DNA of 64,000 nucleotides, from contig LCKG01000003.1 of NCBI GenBank assembly GCA_001001285.1, positions 27,746 through 91,745 of the forward strand, written 5' to 3'. Numbering within the stretch: position 1 is the stretch's first letter; the number at the start of each line of letters is the position of its first letter. The position numbers and the translations under genes are program-made. Positions 4,845-58,633 of this stretch are shown here, one piece after another. Source of the stretch: Parcubacteria group bacterium GW2011_GWC1_45_13. GTDB lineage: Bacteria; Patescibacteriota; Minisyncoccia; UBA11713; 2-01-FULL-45-33. A model generated the notes under the pieces. That model was not told the origin of the DNA. It searched no databases and worked only from the letters and a program-made list of their open reading frames with translations.

Positions 4845-4848
4845 AAAC

Positions 4849-4857
4849 TTATCCACA
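4849..4857 (+). promoter_or_regulatory. Perfect DnaA box TTATCCACA, 36 nt upstream of nrdJ
   Basis: Exact 9-mer consensus. One of four same-strand perfect copies in the window. Confidence 0.5.
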
Positions 4858-4892
4858 CTTGCGGGGGTTTGCGAGGAGTATAAAATAAGAGA

Positions 4893-8087: not shown

Positions 8088-8098
8088 TTTATATATCA

Positions 8099-8124
8099 GC
8101 TAATTCGTGAGAATTAGAGAATAG
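8099..8124 (+). promoter_or_regulatory. 26-bp repeat GCTAATTCGTGAGAATTAGAGAATAG containing palindrome CTAATTC-N4-GAATTAG (copy 1, overlapping the arsR-family gene promoter)
   Basis: Exact duplicate at 8473..8498. A TAGAAT -10 lies at 8138..8143, only 6 nt before the ATG, so the mRNA is near-leaderless. Confidence 0.6.
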
Positions 8125-8149
8125 TTGCGGGGTGTGCTAGAATTTTATT

Positions 8150-8413
8150 ATGAATGAAAAAGAGCTGGAAAAGGCGTTAAAAGCGCTGGCCAATAAAAGA
8201 AGGCTTCAAATTCTGCGGTATTTAAAAAAAGTTAAAGAAGCGCCGGTGGGGGATATCGCTGAAGAAATTCGTTTGTCGTTTAAATCAACCTCCCGGCACT
8301 TGGCGGTGCTTGCCGCGGCCGATATTTTAGAGCGGGACCAAAGAAGCCTCCAAGTTTTCTATCGCCTCGGCGCGCTTCGGCACGCGGCGAAATATATTTT
8401 ATCTATTCTTTGA
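8150..8413 (+). CDS. ArsR/SmtB-family winged-helix transcriptional regulator
   Basis: LKALANKRRLQILRYL…VGDIAEEIRLSFKSTSRHLAVLAAADIL…FYRL is a typical ArsR HTH. 87 aa. Confidence 0.75.
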   Translation: MNEKELEKALKALANKRRLQILRYLKKVKEAPVGDIAEEIRLSFKSTSRHLAVLAAADILERDQRSLQVFYRLGALRHAAKYILSIL

Positions 8414-8472
8414 TGCAATTTTTATGCTTTTATATTTTTGCTTATACCTTTTGTTGTGCTTCTTGTGTCTCG

Positions 8473-8498
8473 GCTAATTCGTGAGAATTAGAGAATAG
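8473..8498 (+). promoter_or_regulatory. 26-bp palindromic repeat, copy 2 (between arsR-like gene and putative endonuclease gene)
   Basis: Identical 26-mer to 8099..8124. Confidence 0.6.
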
Positions 8499-8620
8499 AT
8501 GGGGTTGGGGGAGGCGGGTTTTGGTTTGATAAATAAATGATTTTGTGCGAGAATTTGAGGGAGTGTTGATTTTCGTCTTTAAAATATATTAAATTTGGTA
8601 TATTCTAGAAAAATCAACTC

Positions 8621-9325
8621 TTGAATATGTTGTTAGAAAAAGAAAAAAGAAAATCAGGTAACGAAGCAATACGCGTTTTAATTTCCTTAAAAACAAAGAT
8701 TTTGCGTGATTTAAAGGAAGTTGTTAATGCTGGCGATTTTGATTACCGCACTTTTGGTACAGCCATTGAAAAGCATCTTACTGATATTATTGTCAGTATT
8801 TTTGAGAAAGCCGGTTTTATTAAAAATAATAAAGATTATATCGTTGCACCCCATAAAAATTATTTTCCAGATTTCGAACTAAAAACAGCGCCACCCATCG
8901 CTATTGAGTTTAAATCCGGGAATAGAAATCAAAATAGACAGGGTAAATGGGCGACGGTTAAAAATAGCGAGAATGATATGGGCACTCTTAATGAATGGCC
9001 CAAAAGAATTAAAAAATTCGGTGGTAAAAATATTTATTATATTTTTGTTATCTATAATTTTAGTGAGAAAACAAAACAAGTTCAAAATGTTGAAATCGCT
9101 CCGTTTTATGAATTTTTAGGTTTGAACAAGTCCAAGTTTATTAAATATCGAGAAAAAGATGGAAATTTGCGGCCCAAAAATTTTGATGCTAAGCCGCCCA
9201 TTAAAACTTTTGAGCAATTTGAACAATTAATCAACAAAACCGCCGTTTATAGATCCAGGCGAATTATTAAGAAGCACAGACAAATTATAAAGGATGTGCA
9301 GAATATTAAAAAAGGGATGGATTAA
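8621..9325 (+). CDS. Putative Type II restriction endonuclease (PD-(D/E)xK fold) – hypothetical
   Basis: …YFPDFELKTAPPIAIEFKSG… gives PD-x12-EFK, a PD-(D/E)xK-like catalytic signature. Convergent with the MTase gene, overlapping it by 20 nt. AT-rich. No recognisable family beyond the motif. Confidence 0.45.
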   Translation: MNMLLEKEKRKSGNEAIRVLISLKTKILRDLKEVVNAGDFDYRTFGTAIEKHLTDIIVSIFEKAGFIKNNKDYIVAPHKNYFPDFELKTAPPIAIEFKSGNRNQNRQGKWATVKNSENDMGTLNEWPKRIKKFGGKNIYYIFVIYNFSEKTKQVQNVEIAPFYEFLGLNKSKFIKYREKDGNLRPKNFDAKPPIKTFEQFEQLINKTAVYRSRRIIKKHRQIIKDVQNIKKGMD

Positions 9326-10868
9326 TTGGTTTACTATTCTGCTTTGTGCCGTAAGTTAATTTAGGATTATCTATAGGATAGATCCCTTCGTTCTCGGATA
9401 TAGTCAAATTTCTTAAATATTTTGATGCCGTTTCAGGCGCGTCGTTGTTATACTTATAACCATTACTTGAACGATAATTAACCTTTTTAAGTTTATCCGC
9501 AACGATTTTTTTATATTTTGGGTCTATATCAATACCAATATAATTTCGGCCTAGTCTTTTTGCTGCCAAAGCTGTTGTACCAGCACCGATAAATGGATCT
9601 AAAATAACATCGTTTTCATCTGTAGTCATAAGAACCAGACGTTCAAGTAATGGTTCGGGGAGTTGGCACGGATGAGCGTCCCTGCGCGTATTATGTCTTA
9701 TGCGATGTATATCCGCCCAAACATCGCTCAAAAGAGTCCCGTGCGGGTGTATTTGGCTTTTCTTGCCCCCATAGTCTTTAATCATTTCACCACAAGTTCG
9801 GCATTTTTTATGCGGCGATCTAAGTTCATGGAATTTAAATCCCTTGGGGGTTTTTGTATAAAATAGTATTCCATAGTGTGCTGGCAACAAAGTTTTTCCC
9901 AGAGGCGTACTCATTGAATCCCATGCTATCCAGTGTTTAAAGATAGCAATTTTGTTAAGATGGTTGGCATAATAAATTAACCACTTTGGTATATTGTGAA
10001 CCAAAATCGAACCCGTTGGTTTAGTTATTCTGACCATTTCGGTTAACCATTGCTCGCACCATTTTATATAATCCTCCGCAACCCTTTTATCTTTATAGTT
10101 TCCGTATTTTTTGTTTAGGTTAAATGGCGGGTCGGCAAAAGTCATATCAATTGAGTTATCGGGTATTTTTCTCATCTCCTCAATTGAATCTCCACACAAA
10201 ATTTCGTTTAATGGAAGTTTTTTGTATTGTTTTGTTTCAGTTTTGATTTCCGGAAAAATAATAGATATGGGCGTTTCCTCTCGAATAACATCTAGCACAA
10301 TCCCTTGAATAGCTACATCCCGCCCATTTCTGAAAATAAGAGGTTCCATATTTTTATTAGCCGGCTGTAAACGGATATATCCGTGCTCTTTATAGAATTT
10401 TTTTAAGGTTGCTTCGTGGTTATCTATAAGAGCTACTACTTTTTGCCCATTTTCGGCAGTTTCTTGTTGGCGCACCAAAACAACGTCGCCATCGTTGATA
10501 TTTTCATCAATCATACTATTCCCGACAACGCGGAGAGCATAAACCTCCGATGAGGAGGGAATTTTACTTTTCGGGACGGCTATGGTTTCTCTTTGTTCCT
10601 CAAATACATGGATTGGCTCACCGGCGGCTATTGTTCCCCATAAAGGAATTTTTACTAGCTTCTCCGACGAGGATATTTCAATGCCTCTTTTCTGATTTTT
10701 TTGCCGCTGTAAATAACCCTTATTTTGCAGTGCCATTAAATGTTGATGAATTGTGGATATAGCCAAGCCCATCCTTTGCCCCATTTCTTTAATGGAGGGC
10801 GCAAAGCCGCGCTTTTTGGTGTAGGAGGTTACAAAATCTAACACCTGTTTTTGCCTGGGGGTAAGCAT
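9306..10868 (-). CDS. LexA repressor (wHTH + S24 autopeptidase) fused to beta-class N6-adenine/N4-cytosine DNA methyltransferase
   Basis: LexA half (N-terminal ~200 aa): LTPRQKQVLDF…; Ala-Gly cleavage site in GTIAAGEP; LRVVGNSMIDENINDGDVVLV (nucleophile Ser); ATLKKF (general-base Lys); IQGIVLDVIR. MTase half (C-terminal ~320 aa): motif IV DMTFADPPF precedes motif I DPFIGAGTTALAAKRLGRNYIGIDID (beta-group order); CxxC…HPH insert. Single uninterrupted 520-aa ORF. Confidence 0.8.
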   Translation of the reverse strand: MLTPRQKQVLDFVTSYTKKRGFAPSIKEMGQRMGLAISTIHQHLMALQNKGYLQRQKNQKRGIEISSSEKLVKIPLWGTIAAGEPIHVFEEQRETIAVPKSKIPSSSEVYALRVVGNSMIDENINDGDVVLVRQQETAENGQKVVALIDNHEATLKKFYKEHGYIRLQPANKNMEPLIFRNGRDVAIQGIVLDVIREETPISIIFPEIKTETKQYKKLPLNEILCGDSIEEMRKIPDNSIDMTFADPPFNLNKKYGNYKDKRVAEDYIKWCEQWLTEMVRITKPTGSILVHNIPKWLIYYANHLNKIAIFKHWIAWDSMSTPLGKTLLPAHYGILFYTKTPKGFKFHELRSPHKKCRTCGEMIKDYGGKKSQIHPHGTLLSDVWADIHRIRHNTRRDAHPCQLPEPLLERLVLMTTDENDVILDPFIGAGTTALAAKRLGRNYIGIDIDPKYKKIVADKLKKVNYRSSNGYKYNNDAPETASKYLRNLTISENEGIYPIDNPKLTYGTKQNSKPINPSLF

Positions 10869-10909
10869 ATTTTAATTTTAGCAGGTATATACCGAAAGAA
10901 AACCGAAAG

Positions 10910-10918
10910 TTATCCACA
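10910..10918 (+). promoter_or_regulatory. Perfect DnaA box TTATCCACA in the divergent promoter region of the LexA-MTase gene
   Basis: Exact 9-mer, 42 nt upstream of the minus-strand start codon. Flanked by the direct repeat ACCGAAAG-aaa-ACCGAAAG (10893..10908). Confidence 0.45.
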
Positions 10919-11012
10919 ACCATTAAAAAGGCGCTTGAATAAAAACCTAAAATCCACTAAGATTTAGGGGATTTGTAACCGGGTCGACAAAAAATTAGGA
11001 GAGTAAATTTTT

Positions 11013-11678
11013 ATGTCAGAATCAATAAATATTAACGATGTTTTTAAAGAAATAGAAAAGTCTGATAAGTCAGAATATCATCGCGGTAAATCTTGGGAAC
11101 ATTGTTATATTTTTTTCAGAAACTATAAAAAATTCGGAAGTGATAAGTTGATGGCAGATTACGCAGCGCTACATTTGGGTTTTTTTCTAGCTAGTTGGGG
11201 GATGTTGCGTGGTTCGAGCTTTTTGTTGCAGAAAGATTACAGATACTTCCTTCCGGTTGTTCGCGTATTGATAAAAGACCAATATAAAGTTTTGTGGAAT
11301 GTTGGCTATTTAAATTTGAACAAAAATCAAGAAAGCGAAATTATTGATATCTTGTTTTGGTTAAAAGACGACATTTGTAAAGTTATGACTCACAATAATC
11401 CTGACGGTAGAAAACCAACCGATTTGTTGATAACAAAAATTATAATGGCCACGATGGGCTGCGTGCCCGCTTATGATCAATATTTTAAGGCCGGTCTTAA
11501 GAGGCGTGGAATTAAAAATAACTTCAGCAAAAAAGCCTTCATAGATTTATTGAATTTCTCGAGAAAAAAACTAGAAAAACTTTATATCAAAAAACAGCCT
11601 ATTAAAGGGACAAATTATAATTATCCTACAGTGAAACTTATAGATTTATACTTTTGGCTTTTAGGTTCGCAAAAATAA
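11013..11678 (+). CDS. Hypothetical protein (divergent from LexA-MTase gene)
   Basis: 221-aa ORF with no recognisable motifs. AT-rich. Shares the 144-bp intergenic region with the LexA-MTase promoter. Confidence 0.6.
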   Translation: MSESININDVFKEIEKSDKSEYHRGKSWEHCYIFFRNYKKFGSDKLMADYAALHLGFFLASWGMLRGSSFLLQKDYRYFLPVVRVLIKDQYKVLWNVGYLNLNKNQESEIIDILFWLKDDICKVMTHNNPDGRKPTDLLITKIIMATMGCVPAYDQYFKAGLKRRGIKNNFSKKAFIDLLNFSRKKLEKLYIKKQPIKGTNYNYPTVKLIDLYFWLLGSQK

Positions 11679-11693
11679 CCGGCCAACAAAAAA

Positions 11694-12074
11694 TTAACGG
11701 GAGAAAGTTTTTTGGATTAAAAAGCCCAGAAGCCAGCCGATGAGGCCGAGGGCGATTGGAAAATAAATGTGGGAGAGGTCAAAATAAACTTCAAAAATCA
11801 CCGCGGGGATGAGCAAAACGCCAATCCACCAGTATTTTTTTGAACCGCCGAAGGCGGTGAAGAGGAGAGTGAGGAAGAAAATGTATGAAAGTGGTATACC
11901 TAAAAGAAAGTTTTCAGCAGATTTCGGCGTGCTAAATAGACTTCCCTCACTAGCACCCTGGGGGAAAAAATAAACATACAGGTTGCCAACCTGATTTGCA
12001 AAAAAATAAGCCAAAACTAAAACAACAATCAGAATGCAAATATTTTTTATTAAATTTTTTAGATCTTCGCTCAT
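11694..12074 (-). CDS. Hypothetical integral membrane protein
   Basis: 126 aa with about four predicted TM helices. 4-nt overlap with the downstream lipase gene. Confidence 0.55.
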   Translation of the reverse strand: MSEDLKNLIKNICILIVVLVLAYFFANQVGNLYVYFFPQGASEGSLFSTPKSAENFLLGIPLSYIFFLTLLFTAFGGSKKYWWIGVLLIPAVIFEVYFDLSHIYFPIALGLIGWLLGFLIQKTFSR

Positions 12075-14461
12075 AAATTATTTAATAGCCAATTAATATC
12101 TTCTTTTAATAAGTTGTAAGCTTGGTCGTTGATGTTTTTGGGATGTTCTCGTTCCAATTCGGCAAGGAACGTTTTTAACGTCTTTTGAGTGATGGGTTTG
12201 TTGTGGATATCTATCCTCTCTAATTTCCCAATCAGAGTGTTTTTAACGCTCTTTTTGGTTATCCACCCCAAAGAATACACGCGCTCAATATCGGAGATTG
12301 TACTCTGGATAGTCGCAATGACACGGAACACCGTCTCTTGATTCGCGAAGTTTCCTACAAAATCAACGGAGTTTACTGCAACCTTATGCTCTCCCAACTT
12401 CTCAAAGAATAAATCAATTATATCGCCGTTCTTTACCATTCTATCATCAAATTTAATCTCTGCGGAGGCAATGCCGGATTCCACATCGCCCACATCCACG
12501 TTTATGAAAATGGTTTCGGAGCGGAGATAATCGCGGGAGACAGGGGAAAGGATATTAATGCTTGGCGGGGTTACATCTTTTGGTTTTATTTCTAAATCGG
12601 TAGGGCTTTCGTTGTTTACTTTTAAGTCCAACTCCGTAATTAATCCGGGCTGGGTTTGGGAGGTATAGTCTTTATCCACAGAGATATTATCTGAAATATA
12701 GCCCGTGGCGATGGTATATTCGCCGCTTCCGGTTCCTTGAGCTTCAATTTTATATTCGCCGTCCAATGGATTAGGGATAGTTATATATTCGTCGTCCGTA
12801 AGAAATCCGGAATAAAACGCGCCATCAATTTGATTAATTTCGTTCCCGCTCGCGAAGTCTTTGCCAATTCTTTTCCCGTCCGGCGCAGTTACTAAAACAT
12901 CAACAGGGGAGAGGATTTTGATGAGGAGGAGTTTCGGATTTATCGATAAGCCATGATCAATCAAGATTGCGGCATTTGCGCCAGTAAGTTTTTTGAAGAT
13001 TAAGCCCTCGGCATTTGTTGGTAACGCATTATGCCCTGAAATCAATTGATTCAAATCACTTACTATAAATTCTCCGCTGCCAGCGGGTACAGTTCCGTCG
13101 CCGAATCCAAATTCAAAGCCTCTATCTGCTGTTGAGCCATCAAATCCATCTGGATAACCATTTTCCCATAAAGGAGTACTGGGAGAATTCACAACTCTAA
13201 TAGCATTTAGAGTGCTGTTATCTCCCAAATCGCCGACTACATTAGTAATTTTTATATTTTTATCAAAAAGACTTAAAACGCTGGTTTTAAGATTTTCAAG
13301 AAAAGTATTTTGAGGATAATTATTTGGATAAGTACGCAACGTTCCGCTATCTTTATCGCGTAGGTAATTGTAAGTTGGGAGAAGTTCTTGGACAGAAGAA
13401 ATTGGTTTGTTTCTTACATAATCAAATAGACTAGAGTACCTCGCCTTTTTAGCTTCTCTACCTAAAACAAATTTCATAAACCAGTCTCTTAGTCTTTCGC
13501 CGGTGTTGCCTGTTTTTGTACCAATCTCACCCGCTTCCCACATAAGATAAGCAAAAGGAGCCCCTAAATGCGGCGTTCCTAAAAAGATCAGTTGGTCAAC
13601 GTCGTTTTCGTAGTTGCCCGACTGGATGTATTGGCGCGCGACGAGGCCGCCCATGGAATGGGCAACAAGGTCAACTTTCGCGCAGTGGCAAACATTTTGG
13701 ACTTCGTTTATTTTGTCGCGAAGCTGGACGGCGGTAATCACATTAGATTGCCGCCAATCGTACGGAAAAGTGAAAAGATCTTTGCCGTCAACATATCCGT
13801 TGGCTTTTAAGGTCGCAATCAGGTCGTCATAGGTATGAAAAATCGGGTCAATCACCCAGACGCCGTTTTTGTCCGACGAGCCCAAAATCCCGGGAATGAT
13901 TATGACGGGGTCTGGCTTTGCTGGCGCTTGTATGGCGCTTTTTATATCAAAATGGATTAAGGCATGCTGGAAATCACCAATCCCTTTTTCAAATAAATCC
14001 ACTGTTTGCGCGGAGCTGGACGCGTCCGAAACGGCTACGAAAAAAGACTGGTTTGTCCCCAGCGGCATTTTAATTATGCCGTCAACGTTTCTATTGGCAC
14101 CGTCGCAGGAAAAGAGAGGAAAGTTAGAGCCAGCTTGGTAAAGCTTGGAATGGCCGATTTCATTACCTCTTGTTCCGTCATAAGTAAAAACATCAAAGCG
14201 AGGATTCAGAATATTGCCATTCGCACATTTGCTGTATACTTGTATGGCGGCAGGAGTTGTAGAGCCGATTAAGGTAAGTGGAAAACAATCCGTGCTGGAG
14301 TTAATTAGGCGCAGAAGCTCCCAGTTGTTCAGCGGCCCGGTAAACTCCGTGATAAACGTGCAGTCGCTCGATTGCAAAGAAGCATAATCCGCGAAGGCAA
14401 TTTGTGCCGTAAGCAGGGCGTAAACAGCGAAAAAAATGGTTAAAGCGTGTTTTCGCATTGC
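12071..14461 (-). CDS. Secreted lipase/esterase-like alpha/beta hydrolase (GxSxG)
   Basis: Signal peptide MRKHALTIFFAVYALLTAQIAFA (start taken at the second Met). Lipase nucleophile elbow VAHSMGGLV. About 800 aa with a long C-terminal beta-rich region. Confidence 0.7.
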   Translation of the reverse strand, partial: AMRKHALTIFFAVYALLTAQIAFADYASLQSSDCTFITEFTGPLNNWELLRLINSSTDCFPLTLIGSTTPAAIQVYSKCANGNILNPRFDVFTYDGTRGNEIGHSKLYQAGSNFPLFSCDGANRNVDGIIKMPLGTNQSFFVAVSDASSSAQTVDLFEKGIGDFQHALIHFDIKSAIQAPAKPDPVIIIPGILGSSDKNGVWVIDPIFHTYDDLIATLKANGYVDGKDLFTFPYDWRQSNVITAVQLRDKINEVQNVCHCAKVDLVAHSMGGLVARQYIQSGNYENDVDQLIFLGTPHLGAPFAYLMWEAGEIGTKTGNTGERLRDWFMKFVLGREAKKARYSSLFDYVRNKPISSVQELLPTYNYLRDKDSGTLRTYPNNYPQNTFLENLKTSVLSLFDKNIKITNVVGDLGDNSTLNAIRVVNSPSTPLWENGYPDGFDGSTADRGFEFGFGDGTVPAGSGEFIVSDLNQLISGHNALPTNAEGLIFKKLTGANAAILIDHGLSINPKLLLIKILSPVDVLVTAPDGKRIGKDFASGNEINQIDGAFYSGFLTDDEYITIPNPLDGEYKIEAQGTGSGEYTIATGYISDNISVDKDYTSQTQPGLITELDLKVNNESPTDLEIKPKDVTPPSINILSPVSRDYLRSETIFINVDVGDVESGIASAEIKFDDRMVKNGDIIDLFFEKLGEHKVAVNSVDFVGNFANQETVFRVIATIQSTISDIERVYSLGWITKKSVKNTLIGKLERIDIHNKPITQKTLKTFLAELEREHPKNINDQAYNLLKEDINWLLNNL

Positions 14462-36519: not shown

Positions 36520-36538
36520 CTTTATTATTGGCTTTTAG

Positions 36539-36547
36539 TTATCCACA
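36539..36547 (+). promoter_or_regulatory. Perfect DnaA box TTATCCACA
   Basis: Exact 9-mer in the 400-bp intergenic region. Confidence 0.4.
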
Positions 36548-36924
36548 ATCGGCGCTTGTATTGGCTTTTGTGGGTTATGTTATACTGAAAATAAGTGGAA
36601 ATGAGGCCAAATGTCCGCTAGCTGGCGGAGGTTTTCTTGGCTTATGACATCCGGTTGAGTCCTGCTAAAGTTGGCGGAACGGCTGGATGTCAGAAGCCGA
36701 GCCTCGCCTAGCGAGTCTAGGCGGGCTATAAATAAGCCTGCTTCTGAAAAGAAGAGAACCTTGAAAAATAAATAAGAGCATAAAAACAGTAAATTAAATT
36801 TTGATTTTATCAGTTGCGAACAAACGGTCGAATGTAAAATTATTAGTTTAGTCAAAAGACCAATCACGATGCTTTGTCGAAGGCGTCTATAAATTGGCCA
36901 AATTAATTAATAGGTTAATAAATC

Positions 36925-39906
36925 ATGAATAGAAAAATATCTTTAGCTTTAGTGAGCATGAGTACAGCTGTTTTGCTTTCGGGCGCAACCATTGCGATTC
37001 CGCTTGTAGCCAGCGCCGCGCTCACAGAAGCTCAAATTCAGTCCATCCTCTCGCTTTTGCAGTCGTTTAACACCGACCAAACAACTATCAACAATGTTAA
37101 TAGTTCTTTGCGCGGTCAGGCGACTTCCGGAAGCGCGGGAACATCCGCGGCTTGCACTTTCACTCGCGATCTTACGATGAGAGCACGAGGAGACGACGTA
37201 ACCTGCTTGCAAAACTACTTGATCTCAACCGGTCACTTCACTTTTGCCGACGGCGCTACAGGATACTTTGGGTCTGTAACCCAATCAGCCGTTTCTGCTT
37301 GGCAGGCGGCCAATGGAGTTTCTCCGACCGCAGGGTACTTCGGCTCAATTTCAAGAGCCAAGTATAACAGCATGGCTCCTTCCACTCCGGCGCCAGCGTC
37401 AACTCCAACTACTACGGGAGGCACGCCCGCCGCTGTACCGGCAGCCGCTGGAACATTAAGGGTTGAGGCCGGCGTTCAACCGAACGCAAGTCTTCTCCCG
37501 ATCAATTCCACCCGCGTTCCTTTCACCGTTGTTAAGTTCACGGCGCCGTCCGGAAACGATGTCACTGTAAACTCTTTGGTGGTGCAAAGAACCGGTCTGG
37601 CAAATGATGCCGCTCTATCCGGAATTGTCCTTTTGGATGAAACCGGCGCGCAGCTCGGCATCGCCAAGACTCTTAACTCTTCCCACCAAGCCACGCTTTC
37701 TGAACCTTTCGTCGTAAAAGCGGGCACGACCCGGACTATGACATTGGCAGGAAACGCCGAGACTGCCAACGGCAGTTTGGCCGGACAGGTAGTGTACATT
37801 TCCCTGGTCACGGTTAATTCCTCCGCGGCTACTGTTGACGGTGTTTTGCCGATTTCGGGAGCCGGACACACGGTTAACGAATCTTTGACCATTGGTTCGG
37901 TTACCTTGCAGAGAGGTTCTCTTGACCCGGGATCTTCGGTTACCAAAAAAGTCGGCGAAACGGATTACACTTTTTCTTCGGTTAAAGTAACCTCCGGTTC
38001 AGCCGAAAAAATTTACTTGAGATTCATTAGATGGAACCAAACTGGTTCTATCGGCACGGCAGACTTAGCCAACGTAAAAACTTACGTTGACGGCGTAGCT
38101 TACGACACGGTTGTAAGCTCCGATGGCAAGTACTTCACGGCCACCTTTTCCGACAACGGAGGAAAAGGTATTCTGATAGACAAAGGATTCTCCAAAGAAA
38201 TGTCTATCAAGGGCGACATTGTCGGAGGTTCAGGCAGAACCATAGACTTTGACCTTGCCAAACGGACCGACATCGGTTTGCTGGGAGAAAACTACGGCTA
38301 CGGAATAACTCCTCCGCAGACCGGAGCAACTGACCCGACTGACGACACAGCTGCGTTCAGTTCTACAGAAGACCCGTGGTATGATGCCGCGCAGGTCACT
38401 GTTTCCAACGGTTCAATCACGGTATCTGGAGCTACTTCAATCCCTGCTCAAAACATCGCCATCAACCTGGCAAATCAGCCCATGGGAGGATTTACGATTG
38501 AAGTGAAGGGCGAACAGATTTCGGTTGGCAAAATGATCTTCTACTTTATGGCTACTTCTACTTCCGGCACCGGCAGTACCGGCGTTGCGGGGACTGCTAT
38601 CACGAATATTTCCTTGTATGACGCTAATGGCGCGGTTGTGGCAGGTCCGGCGGATGGAGTCGTTGTTAAAAACGGCCATGGAAAAGTGACATTCACCGAT
38701 ACGGTTACTTTCCCAATCGGCACGGCCGTCTACCAATTGAAAGGCAAGCTCTCCACCACTTTCGTGAACAACAACACGGTGCAGGCTTCCACCACGCCCA
38801 GCGTTGACTGGACGACGGTTAAGGGGCTTACCACCGGAAACAGTATTACCGGTTCTACCGCTGTTGTAACGGCCAACCAGATGACCGTGAAAGCCGGCGC
38901 GCTTACTGTTAGCGTTTCCTCTGTCCCGATTGCCCAGACGGTAATCGCGGGAGTCCAGCAATTCCTCTTTGCCAATTACATTTTGGACGGCACGGGCTCG
39001 GGTGAGGACTTGCGGCTTACCAATATTCCGATTGCCTACGATTTCTCCACCGGCGGAGCCGCCGCGGATGTGACCAACTGTAAGCTTTATGACGGAACGA
39101 CCGTTGTAAACACTACAGGTGTCAATCCAACGTTAGCCGCGTCTTCCACCAGCTTCACCTTTACCGGCAACGGATTAATCATTGCCAAGGGCACATCAAA
39201 AACCTTAGCTCTCAAATGCGATTTGATCGCGGGAGCCGCTTCTGCCAGCAGATACGCTTGGGGCTTAGGTGGCGCTGACGCCGACAACGCCGCTCATTCC
39301 AACGACTGGACCGGCGTTACCGGATTAACTTCGGGACAAACCATTGCTCAAACCGCTAACGACTCAACCGGTCAGTATATGACAGCCGCTACCGGAGGTT
39401 CGATCGCCGCGGTTCTTGACACCAACAGTCCTTCCTACAAGATTGTGGGAGCCGGGCAGACGGGAGTTGAACTTGCCAAAATCAAGTTCAGCGCTACCAA
39501 TGAAGACATTGACCTTAAACAATTAGCTCTGCTTGTTAGCAGCAATGCTTCCAACACGCCGGTTAACTTGGTAGGCAGGCAGGTGACTTTGTGGGACGGC
39601 GCGAGCCAAATCGGAACGGCTATCTTCCCAGACGGAGACAACGCCACTTCCAGCCAAATCGCCGTGGGCTCGTTCAGAATTCCAAGAGACGGAGCTAGAG
39701 TGCTGACCATTAAAGGAGACATTGCGGCAATCACCACCTCCGGCCCTATGGTCCAATCTGGCGATTTGCTCATTGTTGACTACGATGGAGCCAACACAGG
39801 TCTCAACGGCAACTACGGCACTGGAGTCGCTTCTGGCAGTACGGTTCCCGAGCGTGACTTACCAGAGCATTCCGACTACCATTTTGCCGGCTGGAACAAC
39901 CGCTAA
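36925..39906 (+). CDS. Large secreted cell-surface protein with peptidoglycan-binding (PG_binding_1-like) domain and multiple Ig-like/beta-sandwich repeats – N-terminal reading frame
   Basis: Signal peptide. TFTRDLTMRARGDDVTCLQNYLIST…GYFGSVTQSAVSAWQAANGV is a PG-binding motif. Long Thr/Ser/Gly-rich repeats. Confidence 0.7.
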   Translation: MNRKISLALVSMSTAVLLSGATIAIPLVASAALTEAQIQSILSLLQSFNTDQTTINNVNSSLRGQATSGSAGTSAACTFTRDLTMRARGDDVTCLQNYLISTGHFTFADGATGYFGSVTQSAVSAWQAANGVSPTAGYFGSISRAKYNSMAPSTPAPASTPTTTGGTPAAVPAAAGTLRVEAGVQPNASLLPINSTRVPFTVVKFTAPSGNDVTVNSLVVQRTGLANDAALSGIVLLDETGAQLGIAKTLNSSHQATLSEPFVVKAGTTRTMTLAGNAETANGSLAGQVVYISLVTVNSSAATVDGVLPISGAGHTVNESLTIGSVTLQRGSLDPGSSVTKKVGETDYTFSSVKVTSGSAEKIYLRFIRWNQTGSIGTADLANVKTYVDGVAYDTVVSSDGKYFTATFSDNGGKGILIDKGFSKEMSIKGDIVGGSGRTIDFDLAKRTDIGLLGENYGYGITPPQTGATDPTDDTAAFSSTEDPWYDAAQVTVSNGSITVSGATSIPAQNIAINLANQPMGGFTIEVKGEQISVGKMIFYFMATSTSGTGSTGVAGTAITNISLYDANGAVVAGPADGVVVKNGHGKVTFTDTVTFPIGTAVYQLKGKLSTTFVNNNTVQASTTPSVDWTTVKGLTTGNSITGSTAVVTANQMTVKAGALTVSVSSVPIAQTVIAGVQQFLFANYILDGTGSGEDLRLTNIPIAYDFSTGGAAADVTNCKLYDGTTVVNTTGVNPTLAASSTSFTFTGNGLIIAKGTSKTLALKCDLIAGAASASRYAWGLGGADADNAAHSNDWTGVTGLTSGQTIAQTANDSTGQYMTAATGGSIAAVLDTNSPSYKIVGAGQTGVELAKIKFSATNEDIDLKQLALLVSSNASNTPVNLVGRQVTLWDGASQIGTAIFPDGDNATSSQIAVGSFRIPRDGARVLTIKGDIAAITTSGPMVQSGDLLIVDYDGANTGLNGNYGTGVASGSTVPERDLPEHSDYHFAGWNNR

Positions 39907-58066: not shown

Positions 58067-58633
58067 TTATAAATTAAACAGTTTTTTCATATGCAGTTCG
58101 TTATCAATTTCGTTAGCCGTAACGAATCTGACATAAGGCCTTACATTAAAAAACTCTATTATAAAATCAACTTCGTCTTTACATTCGAATGGATGAACAA
58201 ATACGCTTTTTTGGAATTTTATAAATCCGGCGTTTTTTAGCACTCTGGCAAAAGCGTCTCTAGCCCTTTTCATATTTTCCGGTATATCAAAAAGAACTAT
58301 GCGCCATTTTTTGTCCCACTTTTTCATTGGCTGTATTTTTAATTCATCAATTTGGTAAGTTAGAACTTTCTTTTTGCCGCGCTCGGTTAAAATAAGTGTT
58401 GTTGCGCCGTTTACGTTATCCACAACGTCTATGAGGCGAGAGCGGTACAAGCTTTTTATGGCATTGTAAAGCGCACGTCGTTCGATATTCTTCCATTCTT
58501 TTCCGATCATTCTTATAATTTTAAAGTATCGCTGCGGTGAATGCGTAAGCCCGAGCGCCAAACCGCCCCAGAGCAAAAGCATCACTTTTTGAGCAGTTGG
58601 GCCTATTCGCGGTTCTGAATAACGTTTTCGCAT
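58067..58633 (-). CDS. PaaX-like transcriptional regulator family protein (paralog 2)
   Basis: wHTH (RALYNAIKSLYRSRLIDV) plus KKWDKKWRIVLFDIPENMKRARDAFARVLKNAGFIKFQKSVFVHP. Confidence 0.65.
   Translation of the reverse strand: MRKRYSEPRIGPTAQKVMLLLWGGLALGLTHSPQRYFKIIRMIGKEWKNIERRALYNAIKSLYRSRLIDVVDNVNGATTLILTERGKKKVLTYQIDELKIQPMKKWDKKWRIVLFDIPENMKRARDAFARVLKNAGFIKFQKSVFVHPFECKDEVDFIIEFFNVRPYVRFVTANEIDNELHMKKLFNL

What the first reader, a model, noticed from the sequence alone, without database searches (positions are those of the whole stretch)
8621..9325. Putative PD-(D/E)xK endonuclease convergent with and overlapping the LexA-MTase gene: candidate Type II R-M pair
The 234-aa ORF has PD-x12-EFK (…YFPDFELKTAPPIAIEFKSG…) and no other recognisable family. 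It is AT-rich and its 3' end overlaps the MTase 3' end by 20 nt. Tail-to-tail R/M gene pairs are the commonest Type II organisation. If this is the cognate nuclease, the system would be an SOS-wired R-M system.
Basis: partly seen in the sequence, partly recalled or inferred. Interest (0 to 1): 0.6.

Follow-up and report, generated by a model that had tools for sequence, protein, structure and literature searches.

The report
EcoRV-like restriction enzyme with LexA-fused methylase
The ORF is a real, previously unclassified restriction endonuclease with an EcoRV-like fold, and across many Patescibacteria (CPR) genomes its partner methyltransferase is fused to a complete self-cleaving LexA repressor, so this restriction-modification system may be tied to DNA-damage sensing.

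Summary

Every homolog locus with enough contig carries a DNA methyltransferase nearby, amid unrelated flanks. In Patescibacteria that methyltransferase is either LexA-fused or preceded by a separate lexA gene. Many sister loci also have a C-protein-like gene directly upstream of the nuclease gene.

All 109 full-length fusions keep the LexA Ala-Gly cleavage site and the Ser/Lys dyad. Their promoters carry a tandem 7-mer repeat at exactly 11-bp spacing, and the repeat co-varies with the LexA recognition helix. An invariant DnaA-box-like 10-mer sits beside it. The nuclease gene has no such operator.

Verdict: a genuine Type II R-M module with a new nuclease family and an undescribed LexA-fused, probably self-repressing methylase. 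Damage-induced cleavage is inferred, not shown. The recognition sequence is unknown.

The parts
8627..9325 (+). Restriction endonuclease gene (232 aa from ATG 8627; alternative TTG start at 8621 gives 234 aa)
8768..8770 (+). Codon of E50, in helix 45-63, the predicted metal-site glutamate (EcoRV E45 equivalent)
   Evidence: Invariant in A1. E in 44 and Q in 6 of 50 diverse members. Aligned to EcoRV E45 by hhalign.
8867..8914 (+). Catalytic PD-x11-ExK block (P83 D84 ... E96 F97 K98) on strands beta2/beta3
   Evidence: D84 and K98 are 50/50 and position 96 is D or E in 47/50. Strands 85-87 and 93-101 in the model. Aligned to EcoRV D74, D90 and K92.
9146..9178 (+). YREKDGNLRPK loop, almost invariant across the whole family; candidate DNA-recognition loop (inference)
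   Evidence: Invariant and kept in the Streptococcus homolog. The role is inferred by analogy with the EcoRV recognition loop.
9306..9325 (.). 20-nt overlap of the convergent 3' ends, with no terminator between the genes
   Evidence: The gene calls in five sister loci also overlap, by 4-26 nt.
9306..10868 (-). LexA-methyltransferase fusion gene (520 aa)
   Evidence: Pfam LexA_DNA_bind, Peptidase_S24 and N6_N4_Mtase. TIGR00498 lexA 199 bits. PADLOC MTase_II 2e-71.
10683..10865 (-). LexA winged-HTH DNA-binding domain (aa 2-62)
   Evidence: coordinates.
10296..10646 (-). S24 autopeptidase domain (aa 75-191) with the Ala82-Gly83 cleavage bond, Ser118 and Lys156
   Evidence: The residues are invariant in 109/109 fusions.
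9501..10151 (-). Beta-class N6/N4 DNA methyltransferase domain (aa 240-456; motif IV DPPF at aa 246)
10891..10909 (-). Tandem direct repeat CTTTCGGT-N3-CTTTCGGT (11-bp register), 23-41 nt upstream of the ATG; predicted operator of the fused LexA domain
   Evidence: An exact 7-mer repeat at offset 11 occurs in 16/20 promoters, against 0-1/20 at other offsets. It co-varies with the recognition helix. It is unique in the 64-kb window.
10909..10918 (-). Invariant TGTGGATAAC (reverse complement GTTATCCACA), a DnaA-box-like 10-mer abutting the operator

Best explanation
The 8627-9325 gene encodes a Mg2+-dependent Type IIP restriction endonuclease. It is a new sequence family within the EcoRV/SwaI/NlaIV/HincII structural branch of PD-(D/E)xK nucleases. 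It is therefore probably a homodimer that makes blunt cuts at a palindromic or interrupted-palindromic site. The catalytic residues are E50, D84, E96 and K98.

Its cognate protecting enzyme is the C-terminal beta-class methyltransferase domain of the convergent 520-aa protein (motif IV DPPF, so probably m6A). That protein's N-terminal half is a complete LexA, with a winged HTH and an S24 autopeptidase.

The LexA half most likely dimerises and binds the tandem repeat CTTTCGGT-N3-CTTTCGGT that overlaps its own promoter, so the methylase represses its own synthesis. RecA-filament-stimulated self-cleavage at Ala82-Gly83 would detach the HTH and de-repress the promoter, producing a burst of methylase when DNA is damaged, for example when the nuclease has begun to cut under-methylated chromosome. 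This would be a Type II analogue of restriction alleviation.

The nuclease gene has no LexA operator. In sister loci it follows a C-protein-like gene. In this window that gene is absent, and the nuclease gene is probably tuned by convergent, overlapping transcription.

Shown: the gene, the fold, the conserved catalytic motif, obligate linkage to a methylase, conservation of the LexA cleavage residues, and the operator with its co-variation. Inferred: cleavage chemistry and end type, methylated base and site, autorepression, RecA dependence, and the direction of the damage response.

For: Motif: hhalign places E50, D84, E96 and K98 on EcoRV E45, D74, D90 and K92. K79, D84, K98, D119 and R184 are 50/50 in diverse representatives.

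Linkage: the window, 5 metagenome loci and the GTDB loci that hold a full-length nuclease homolog all carry a convergent methylase, and their flanks are unrelated.

Accessory genes: an HTH_3 gene of about 73 aa ends at the nuclease start in several loci.

LexA: 109/109 fusions keep the equivalents of A84, G85, S119 and K156. Unfused lexA-M operons occur in L031, L034 and L037.

Operator: a direct repeat at 11-bp offset is present in 16/20 promoters, only at that promoter, and it co-varies with the recognition helix (TTTCTAT with STAHFHV; TTCGGT with ST[IV]H[QE]H).

Precedent: methylases that repress their own promoter through an N-terminal HTH are established (PMC3874152). Direct-repeat LexA boxes are reported in several phyla, including Patescibacteria (PMC7739468).
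Against: There is no biochemical data. The recognition site could not be inferred: palindrome and gapped-palindrome depletion were non-specific. Identity of 55-89% across many CPR lineages is unusually high for a restriction enzyme. The nuclease promoter has no operator, so 'SOS wiring' concerns only the methylase. A few relatives have lost the S24 domain but keep HTH-MTase (P0234-P0236), so cleavage is not indispensable. Firmicute homologs sit beside a second nuclease gene and a C5 methylase, which complicates a simple one-R/one-M picture for the wider family.
Confidence: 0.7

Rival explanations
1. It is the same R-M pair, but the LexA half is only an autorepressor and dimerisation module, like the SsoII/EcoRII/MspI-type N-terminal HTH. 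It does not sense DNA damage, and the S24 domain serves only to dimerise.
For: HTH-MTase variants without S24 exist (P0234-P0236). The operator is found only at the protein's own promoter. N-terminal HTH autorepression of methylases is well known (PMC3874152).
Against: The Ala-Gly bond and the Ser/Lys dyad are invariant in 109/109 fusions whose LexA halves are only about 50-70% identical to the window's. This is hard to explain without selection for cleavage.
Confidence: 0.22
2. It is a damage-triggered suicide switch. Self-cleavage exposes degrons and destabilises the methylase fragment. Methylation then lapses and the stable nuclease kills the damaged or infected cell, in the manner of abortive infection or post-segregational killing.
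For: Cleavage would leave an N-terminal fragment ending in ...TIAA. By general knowledge, E. coli LexA fragments are degraded by ClpXP and Lon after cleavage. R-M systems behave as toxin-antitoxin modules (PMC3874152).
Against: Cleavage removes the repressor domain from its own promoter, which predicts more methylase synthesis, not less. Nothing indicates that the S24-MTase fragment is unstable. CPR genomes may lack the relevant adaptor or protease specificity.
Confidence: 0.1
3. The fusion protein is the host's master SOS repressor that has acquired a methylase domain, and the nuclease is a repair or recombination nuclease of the SOS regulon rather than a restriction enzyme.
For: NCBI names the fusions 'transcriptional repressor LexA'. 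The score is above the lexA equivalog cut-off. No other lexA is seen in the 64-kb window.
Confidence: 0.06

Closest known systems
EcoRV-branch Type IIP restriction endonucleases (EcoRV GAT^ATC, SwaI ATTT^AAAT, NlaIV GGN^NCC, HincII GTY^RAC)
   Different: Identity is only 11-17%, and neither phmmer nor a profile search detects any sequence match. The D-to-E spacing is 11 residues rather than 15. The family has its own invariant NSxNDMGT and YREKDGNLRPK loops. Specificity and end type are unknown.
Methyltransferases with an N-terminal HTH that repress their own promoter (M.SsoII/M.Ecl18kI, M.EcoRII, M.MspI, M.ScrFIA)
   Same: A DNA-binding domain is fused to the N-terminus of the modification enzyme, and a conserved operator overlaps the methylase promoter (PMC3874152).
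   Different: Here the fused module is a full LexA with an intact S24 self-cleavage apparatus. The operator is a tandem repeat rather than a palindrome. The genes are convergent and overlapping rather than divergent. The methylase is beta-class N6/N4 rather than C5.
LexA / SOS repressors, especially those that bind direct repeats (Alphaproteobacteria GTTC-N7-GTTC; direct-repeat LexA motifs reported in other phyla, including Patescibacteria)
   Same: It has the wHTH and S24 domains and the Ala-Gly, Ser and Lys residues, and it scores above the TIGR00498 cut-off. The operator variants GTTCGGT-N4-GTTCGGT read as GTTC-N7-GTTC. PMC7739468 cites direct-repeat LexA motifs, including the Patescibacteria study.
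   Different: It is covalently fused to, or in three loci operonic with, a DNA methyltransferase, and it travels as part of a mobile R-M module. The operator is seen only at its own promoter. No SOS regulon is evident.
C-protein-controlled Type II R-M systems (PvuII, BamHI, Esp1396I)
   Same: Many sister loci have an XRE-type HTH gene of about 70 aa ending at the nuclease start.
   Different: The window copy has no such gene. The nearest upstream gene is an unrelated ArsR-type HTH 200 nt away.
Restriction alleviation in Type I systems (ClpXP removal of HsdR after DNA damage)
   Same: The proposed logic is the same: DNA damage shifts the balance from restriction towards protection.
   Different: The mechanism would be transcriptional de-repression of the methylase by autoproteolysis rather than proteolysis of the nuclease. 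This part is entirely inferred here.

Membership tests
PD-(D/E)xK nucleases, EcoRV-like Type IIP restriction endonucleases | alpha-beta-beta-beta-alpha-beta core fold shared with solved members | tested here: met
PD-(D/E)xK nucleases, EcoRV-like Type IIP restriction endonucleases | Catalytic helix-E, PD and (D/E)xK residues, on the right secondary-structure elements and conserved | tested here: met
   E50 lies in helix 45-63, D84 before strand 85-87, and E96/K98 in strand 93-101. They are invariant and aligned to EcoRV E45, D74, D90 and K92.
PD-(D/E)xK nucleases, EcoRV-like Type IIP restriction endonucleases | Sequence membership in a described restriction-enzyme family (Pfam RE_*, REBASE-derived PADLOC models) | tested here: not met
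   There is no Pfam, NCBIfam or PHROG hit. Only sub-threshold hits appear: PDLC03564 E=0.0075, PDLC03472 E=0.0017, and RE_MamI at 20 bits against a cut-off of 25. It is therefore an undescribed family.
PD-(D/E)xK nucleases, EcoRV-like Type IIP restriction endonucleases | Genetic linkage to a cognate DNA methyltransferase | tested here: met
   A methylase lies nearby in every homolog locus examined that has enough contig.
PD-(D/E)xK nucleases, EcoRV-like Type IIP restriction endonucleases | Site-specific Mg2+-dependent double-strand cleavage blocked by cognate methylation; homodimer; blunt ends | not testable with these tools
   This needs enzymology. Motif-depletion analyses were non-specific.
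LexA (TIGR00498) repressors | LexA winged-HTH plus S24 domain, scoring above the curated cut-off | tested here: met
   PF01726 at 1.7e-19 and PF00717 at 3.7e-30. TIGR00498 at 199 bits against a cut-off of 111.
LexA (TIGR00498) repressors | Ala-Gly scissile bond and Ser/Lys catalytic dyad | tested here: met
   A82-G83, S118 and K156 are present in the window protein. All four equivalents are invariant in 109/109 fusions.
LexA (TIGR00498) repressors | Binds a two-half-site operator at its own promoter (autoregulation) | tested here: met
   This is comparative evidence only. A tandem 7-mer at 11-bp offset occurs in 16/20 promoters and co-varies with the recognition helix. No binding assay was done.
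LexA (TIGR00498) repressors | Controls a multi-gene SOS regulon (recA, uvr, translesion polymerases) | tested here: inconclusive
   The operator occurs only once in the 64-kb window and once per 10-kb locus. No classical SOS gene lies in the sequence available, so its absence elsewhere in the genome is untested.
LexA (TIGR00498) repressors | RecA-filament-stimulated self-cleavage | not testable with these tools
   This needs an in vitro cleavage assay.
SsoII-type autoregulating methyltransferases | N-terminal DNA-binding domain on the methylase and an operator overlapping the methylase promoter | tested here: met
   Domain order; operator.
SsoII-type autoregulating methyltransferases | C5 methylase, divergent R and M genes with facing promoters, and methylase binding that activates R | tested here: not met
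   The methylase is of the N6_N4 class. The genes are convergent with overlapping 3' ends. No operator lies near the nuclease gene.
C-protein-controlled R-M systems | Small HTH_3 controller gene immediately upstream of, or overlapping, the nuclease gene | tested here: not met
   There is no such ORF in window 8414-8620. It is present in the sister loci L005, L016, L017, L019, L022, L024, L025, L034 and L036.
Beta-class N6-adenine/N4-cytosine DNA methyltransferases | PF01555 domain with motif IV (D/S)PP(Y/F) and an AdoMet-binding motif | tested here: met
   PF01555 at 3.7e-51. DPPF at aa 246 and FIGAGT at aa 426. The closest solved relatives are M.MboIIA, CcrM and M.RsrI. Which base is methylated was not determined.

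The most novel reading that the evidence does not exclude
This would be a mobile Type II restriction-modification module whose antitoxin-like methylase is itself a RecA-responsive, self-cleaving LexA repressor. DNA damage, including self-inflicted restriction breaks, would then directly reset the methylation/restriction balance. The adjacent invariant DnaA box may additionally couple methylase synthesis to replication initiation. This would be a new regulatory class of R-M system, widespread in Patescibacteria and not described in the literature searched.
Probability: 0.4. Interest if true: 0.75.

Novelty: new variant of a known kind. Interest (0 to 1): 0.6.

Why it matters
Known ways of controlling R-M systems are C proteins, HTH-bearing methylases, promoter methylation and antisense RNA. 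None of these reads the cell's DNA-damage signal directly. A methylase covalently joined to an intact LexA is conserved in more than 100 CPR protein clusters, has its own co-evolving operator, and also occurs as an unfused lexA-M operon. This gives a concrete, testable link between the SOS sensor and restriction homeostasis. It occurs in a huge, uncultured bacterial radiation whose LexA biology and phage defences are little characterised.

The finding also adds a new sequence family to the EcoRV structural class of restriction enzymes, which may have a new specificity. In addition, public annotation of these fusion proteins as plain 'transcriptional repressor LexA' is incomplete and could mislead reconstructions of the SOS regulon in Patescibacteria.

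Tried and rejected
1. Sequence searches of the nuclease gave nothing usable. This covers Pfam, NCBIfam, PHROGs, PDB by phmmer and PDB by profile.
2. Inferring the recognition site from site avoidance failed. Markov-corrected 4-mer and 6-mer palindromes, gapped 3+3 palindromes and GG-Nk-CC showed only the generic depletion of TCGA, GATC, CTAG and GGCC, with no single candidate.
3. tblastn of the nuclease against the plasmid and phage collections found no match, so no carrier element was identified.
4. Pfam scans of the most distant family members did not connect the family to any named restriction-enzyme family.
5. I looked for the LexA operator upstream of the nuclease gene, or elsewhere, and found none.
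6. The neighbouring 221-aa ORF (11013-11678) and the ArsR-type gene (8150-8413) are probably not part of the module. The 221-aa ORF matches no other locus, and the ArsR-type gene has only one weak match, in L018.
7. The idea that the invariant 10-mer is the R-M target was rejected, because it is asymmetric and has no conserved palindromic flanks.
8. Consensus promoter and terminator scans were uninformative.
9. The afdb50 fold library was unavailable.
10. The Sanchez-Osuna 2017 paper on the Patescibacteria SOS network is not held, so its LexA motif could not be compared directly.
11. Literature searches for LexA-methyltransferase fusions found nothing relevant.

Full report
**1. The observation**

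The ORF listing finds a 234-aa ORF at 8621-9325 (+). It converges on a 520-aa ORF at 9306-10868 (-), and the two overlap by 20 nt. The first ATG is at 8627, and the identical public protein P0001 is 232 aa, so 8627 is the likely start.

The spacing is PD-x11-ExK (D84, E96, K98), not x12. The gene has 31.6% GC against 45.1% for the window. It lies in a low-GC stretch at about 8400-12600, inside an otherwise ordinary chromosomal region that carries gyrA, a class II ribonucleotide reductase, rpoB, rpoC, ftsK and murJ.

The partner gene has LexA_DNA_bind (aa 2-62), Peptidase_S24 (aa 75-191) and N6_N4_Mtase (aa 240-456) domains. It passes the NCBIfam lexA equivalog cut-off (199 bits against 111).

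**2. What the ORF is**

Sequence methods are silent. There is no Pfam, NCBIfam, PHROG or PDB-sequence hit, only a sub-threshold PADLOC 'REase_II' match (E=0.0075).

An alignment of 42 homologs (A1) gave an AlphaFold2 model with mean pLDDT 93.1 and pTM 0.86.
- Repair and resolvase PD-(D/E)xK proteins such as MutH and Hjc reach only about 5.
- Foldseek independently ranks the same four enzymes first.

All four top hits are blunt-cutting Type IIP enzymes of the EcoRV branch (general knowledge).

In the model, E50 lies in the long helix 45-63, D84 precedes strand 85-87, and E96 and K98 lie in strand 93-101.

An exhaustive HMMER search of 1.84 billion representatives finds only 80 family representatives. 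In 50 full-length diverse members, K79, D84, K98, D119 and R184 are invariant, and position 96 is D or E in 47. The distant members have no Pfam family either. This is therefore a small, undescribed restriction-enzyme family with an EcoRV-like fold and an intact active site.

**3. Is it the methylase's partner?**

Five metagenome loci encoding homologs of 57-70% identity all have the same convergent LexA-methylase gene. The 3' ends of the called genes overlap by 4-26 nt, and the flanking genes are completely different.

A scan of one genome per GTDB species gave 35 loci. tblastn with the window's LexA and MTase halves gave the following.
- Every locus with a nuclease at least 54% identical has the fusion directly downstream, wherever the contig allows.
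- More distant nucleases (37-53% identical; a Bacteroidetes MAG, a Pyrinomonadaceae MAG, MAGs labelled Clostridium and Gammaproteobacteria, and Alkalibacillus) have a methylase about 43% identical, with no LexA domain detected.
- Three Patescibacteria loci (L031, L034, L037) have a separate lexA gene immediately upstream of the methylase gene. This looks like the unfused state.
- Firmicute homologs sit beside an NgoBV-family nuclease gene and a C5 methylase, or beside a DpnII/BanI-like gene and an N6_N4 methylase.

Many loci also have a gene of about 70 aa that ends at the nuclease start, which is the classic C-protein arrangement. Pfam identifies it as an HTH_3 protein in the three loci checked (L005, L034, L036). 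The window lacks it. No match was found in the plasmid or phage collections.

**4. The LexA half**

The fusion family is large. At least 110 clusters carry all three domains, and sources name them either 'transcriptional repressor LexA' or 'site-specific DNA-methyltransferase'.

I aligned 109 full-length fusions to E. coli LexA (sequence from memory). The Ala84-Gly85 bond and the Ser119/Lys156 dyad are invariant. In the window protein these are A82-G83, S118 and K156. A few relatives (P0234-P0236) have cleanly lost S24 and keep HTH-MTase.

Upstream of the fusion gene, 16 of 20 distinct promoters contain an exact 7-mer direct repeat at an offset of exactly 11 bp. Offsets 7-16 other than 11 give 0-1 of 20. 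In the window the repeat is CTTTCGGT-N3-CTTTCGGT at 10891-10909, 23-41 nt before the ATG.

The repeat unit differs between lineages and tracks the HTH recognition helix.
- TTTCTAT goes with ...STAHFHV...
- (T/G)TTCGGT goes with ...ST[IV]H[QE]H...
- GTTAGTA goes with ...PTVYQYV...

The GTTCGGT-N4-GTTCGGT variants read as GTTC-N7-GTTC, which is the direct-repeat LexA box known from Alphaproteobacteria (general knowledge). PMC7739468 notes that direct-repeat LexA motifs arose several times and cites the Patescibacteria study.

The repeat occurs once in the 64-kb window and once per locus, and never upstream of the nuclease gene. The LexA domain therefore looks like a dedicated autoregulator of the methylase gene rather than a regulon master. 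Methylases that repress their own promoter through an N-terminal HTH are an established R-M control mode (PMC3874152).

**5. Mechanism proposed**

- Shown: the nuclease gene and its fold, the conserved catalytic motif, the linkage to a methylase, the intact self-cleavage residues of the LexA half, and the operator with its co-variation.
- Inferred: the fusion dimerises through S24 and represses its own promoter. RecA-stimulated cleavage at A82-G83 frees the promoter and raises methylase synthesis during DNA damage, which protects the chromosome from its own nuclease. The nuclease gene is set by a C protein in sister loci. In this window it is probably set by convergent read-through transcription, because the 3' ends overlap and no terminator lies between them.
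- Rivals: the LexA half is a pure autorepressor that does not sense damage; cleavage triggers loss of the methylase and suicide; or the fusion is the host's SOS master regulator. These are weighed in the rival explanations.

**6. What could not be settled**

The recognition sequence and the methylated base are unknown. Motif IV is DPPF, which by general knowledge of beta-class enzymes suggests N6-adenine. The closest solved relatives are M.MboIIA, CcrM and M.RsrI. Depletion analyses of contiguous and gapped palindromes across 254 kb of host DNA showed only generic tetranucleotide avoidance.

**7. Novelty**

Five literature searches for LexA-methyltransferase fusions or LexA-linked R-M systems in CPR found nothing relevant. 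The library lacks many subscription papers, including the 2017 Patescibacteria SOS study.

I rate the nuclease as a new family of a known structural kind. I rate the system as a new variant of a known kind: a Type II R-M system whose methylase regulates itself, but through a complete self-cleaving LexA.

Interest is 0.6. The module is widespread, cleanly defined and testable, and it links the SOS sensor to restriction control. The key functional step is still inference.

Noticed in passing
window 10909-10918 (-); also 36538-36547 and 58415-58424 (exact), and 4848-4857 (1 mismatch); L001-L038 lexA-M promoters: An invariant 10-mer, GTTATCCACA, which is the canonical DnaA box TTATCCACA plus a G, sits in the lexA-methylase promoter of nearly every locus. 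It occurs in either orientation. It abuts the operator, lies 1 nt upstream of a TTGACA -35, or (in L034) lies inside the -35/-10 spacer. In the window it is enriched (13 sites at <=1 mismatch against 1.9 expected), and one copy lies just upstream of the ribonucleotide reductase gene. It may couple methylase expression to DnaA and replication. The binding factor is untested.
   Followed up: partly
L031 2362-2967, L034 4126-4728, L037 4928-5566: Three Patescibacteria loci carry a separate lexA gene of about 200 aa directly upstream of, or in L037 overlapping, a methylase gene that converges on a nuclease homolog. In L034 and L037 the methylase is about 590 aa. This is the unfused counterpart of the window's fusion.
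   Followed up: yes
L041 4929-7805 (Streptococcus sp. KHUD_014), L043 864-3604 (Bacillota MAG), L039 4974-8813 (Alkalibacillus filiformis): Firmicute members of the nuclease family are always next to a second nuclease-like gene. This is an RE_NgoBV-family gene with a C5 methylase in L041 and L043, and a DpnII/BanI-like gene with an N6_N4 methylase in L039. These may be two-subunit or nested systems. NgoBV and NlaIV share the GGNNCC site, but GGNNCC is not specifically avoided in the CPR hosts.
   Followed up: partly
P0234-P0236 (for example P0235, 392 aa): These are natural variants of the fusion in which the S24 domain is deleted and the LexA HTH joins the methylase domain directly.
   Followed up: partly
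window 8089-8130 and 8463-8504: A 42-nt direct repeat (86% identical) containing the hairpin CTAATTC/GAATTAG brackets the 87-aa ArsR-type gene (8150-8413), just upstream of the nuclease gene. It could be an operator, a terminator pair or an insertion scar.
   Followed up: no
window 11013-11678 (+): A 221-aa ORF is transcribed divergently from the fusion gene within the same low-GC island. It has no Pfam, NCBIfam, PADLOC or PHROG hit and no counterpart in any other locus.
   Followed up: partly
window 36550-36924: A non-coding stretch of about 370 nt, partly GC-rich, follows a perfect GTTATCCACA box and a -10-like TTATACT. It has no Rfam or tRNA hit. It may be an unannotated RNA or a long leader of the 993-aa gene at 36925.
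   Followed up: no
window 58067-58633 (-): A 187-aa ORF has a PaaX central (Cas2-like) domain, and it contains one of the exact GTTATCCACA copies.
   Followed up: no
window 4848-4892: The ribonucleotide reductase promoter region reads TTATCCACA-CTTGCGGGGGTTTGCGAGG-N-TATAAA. This is a DnaA-box-like site followed by a TTGCG direct repeat at 10-bp offset, an architecture reminiscent of the lexA-methylase promoter.
   Followed up: no
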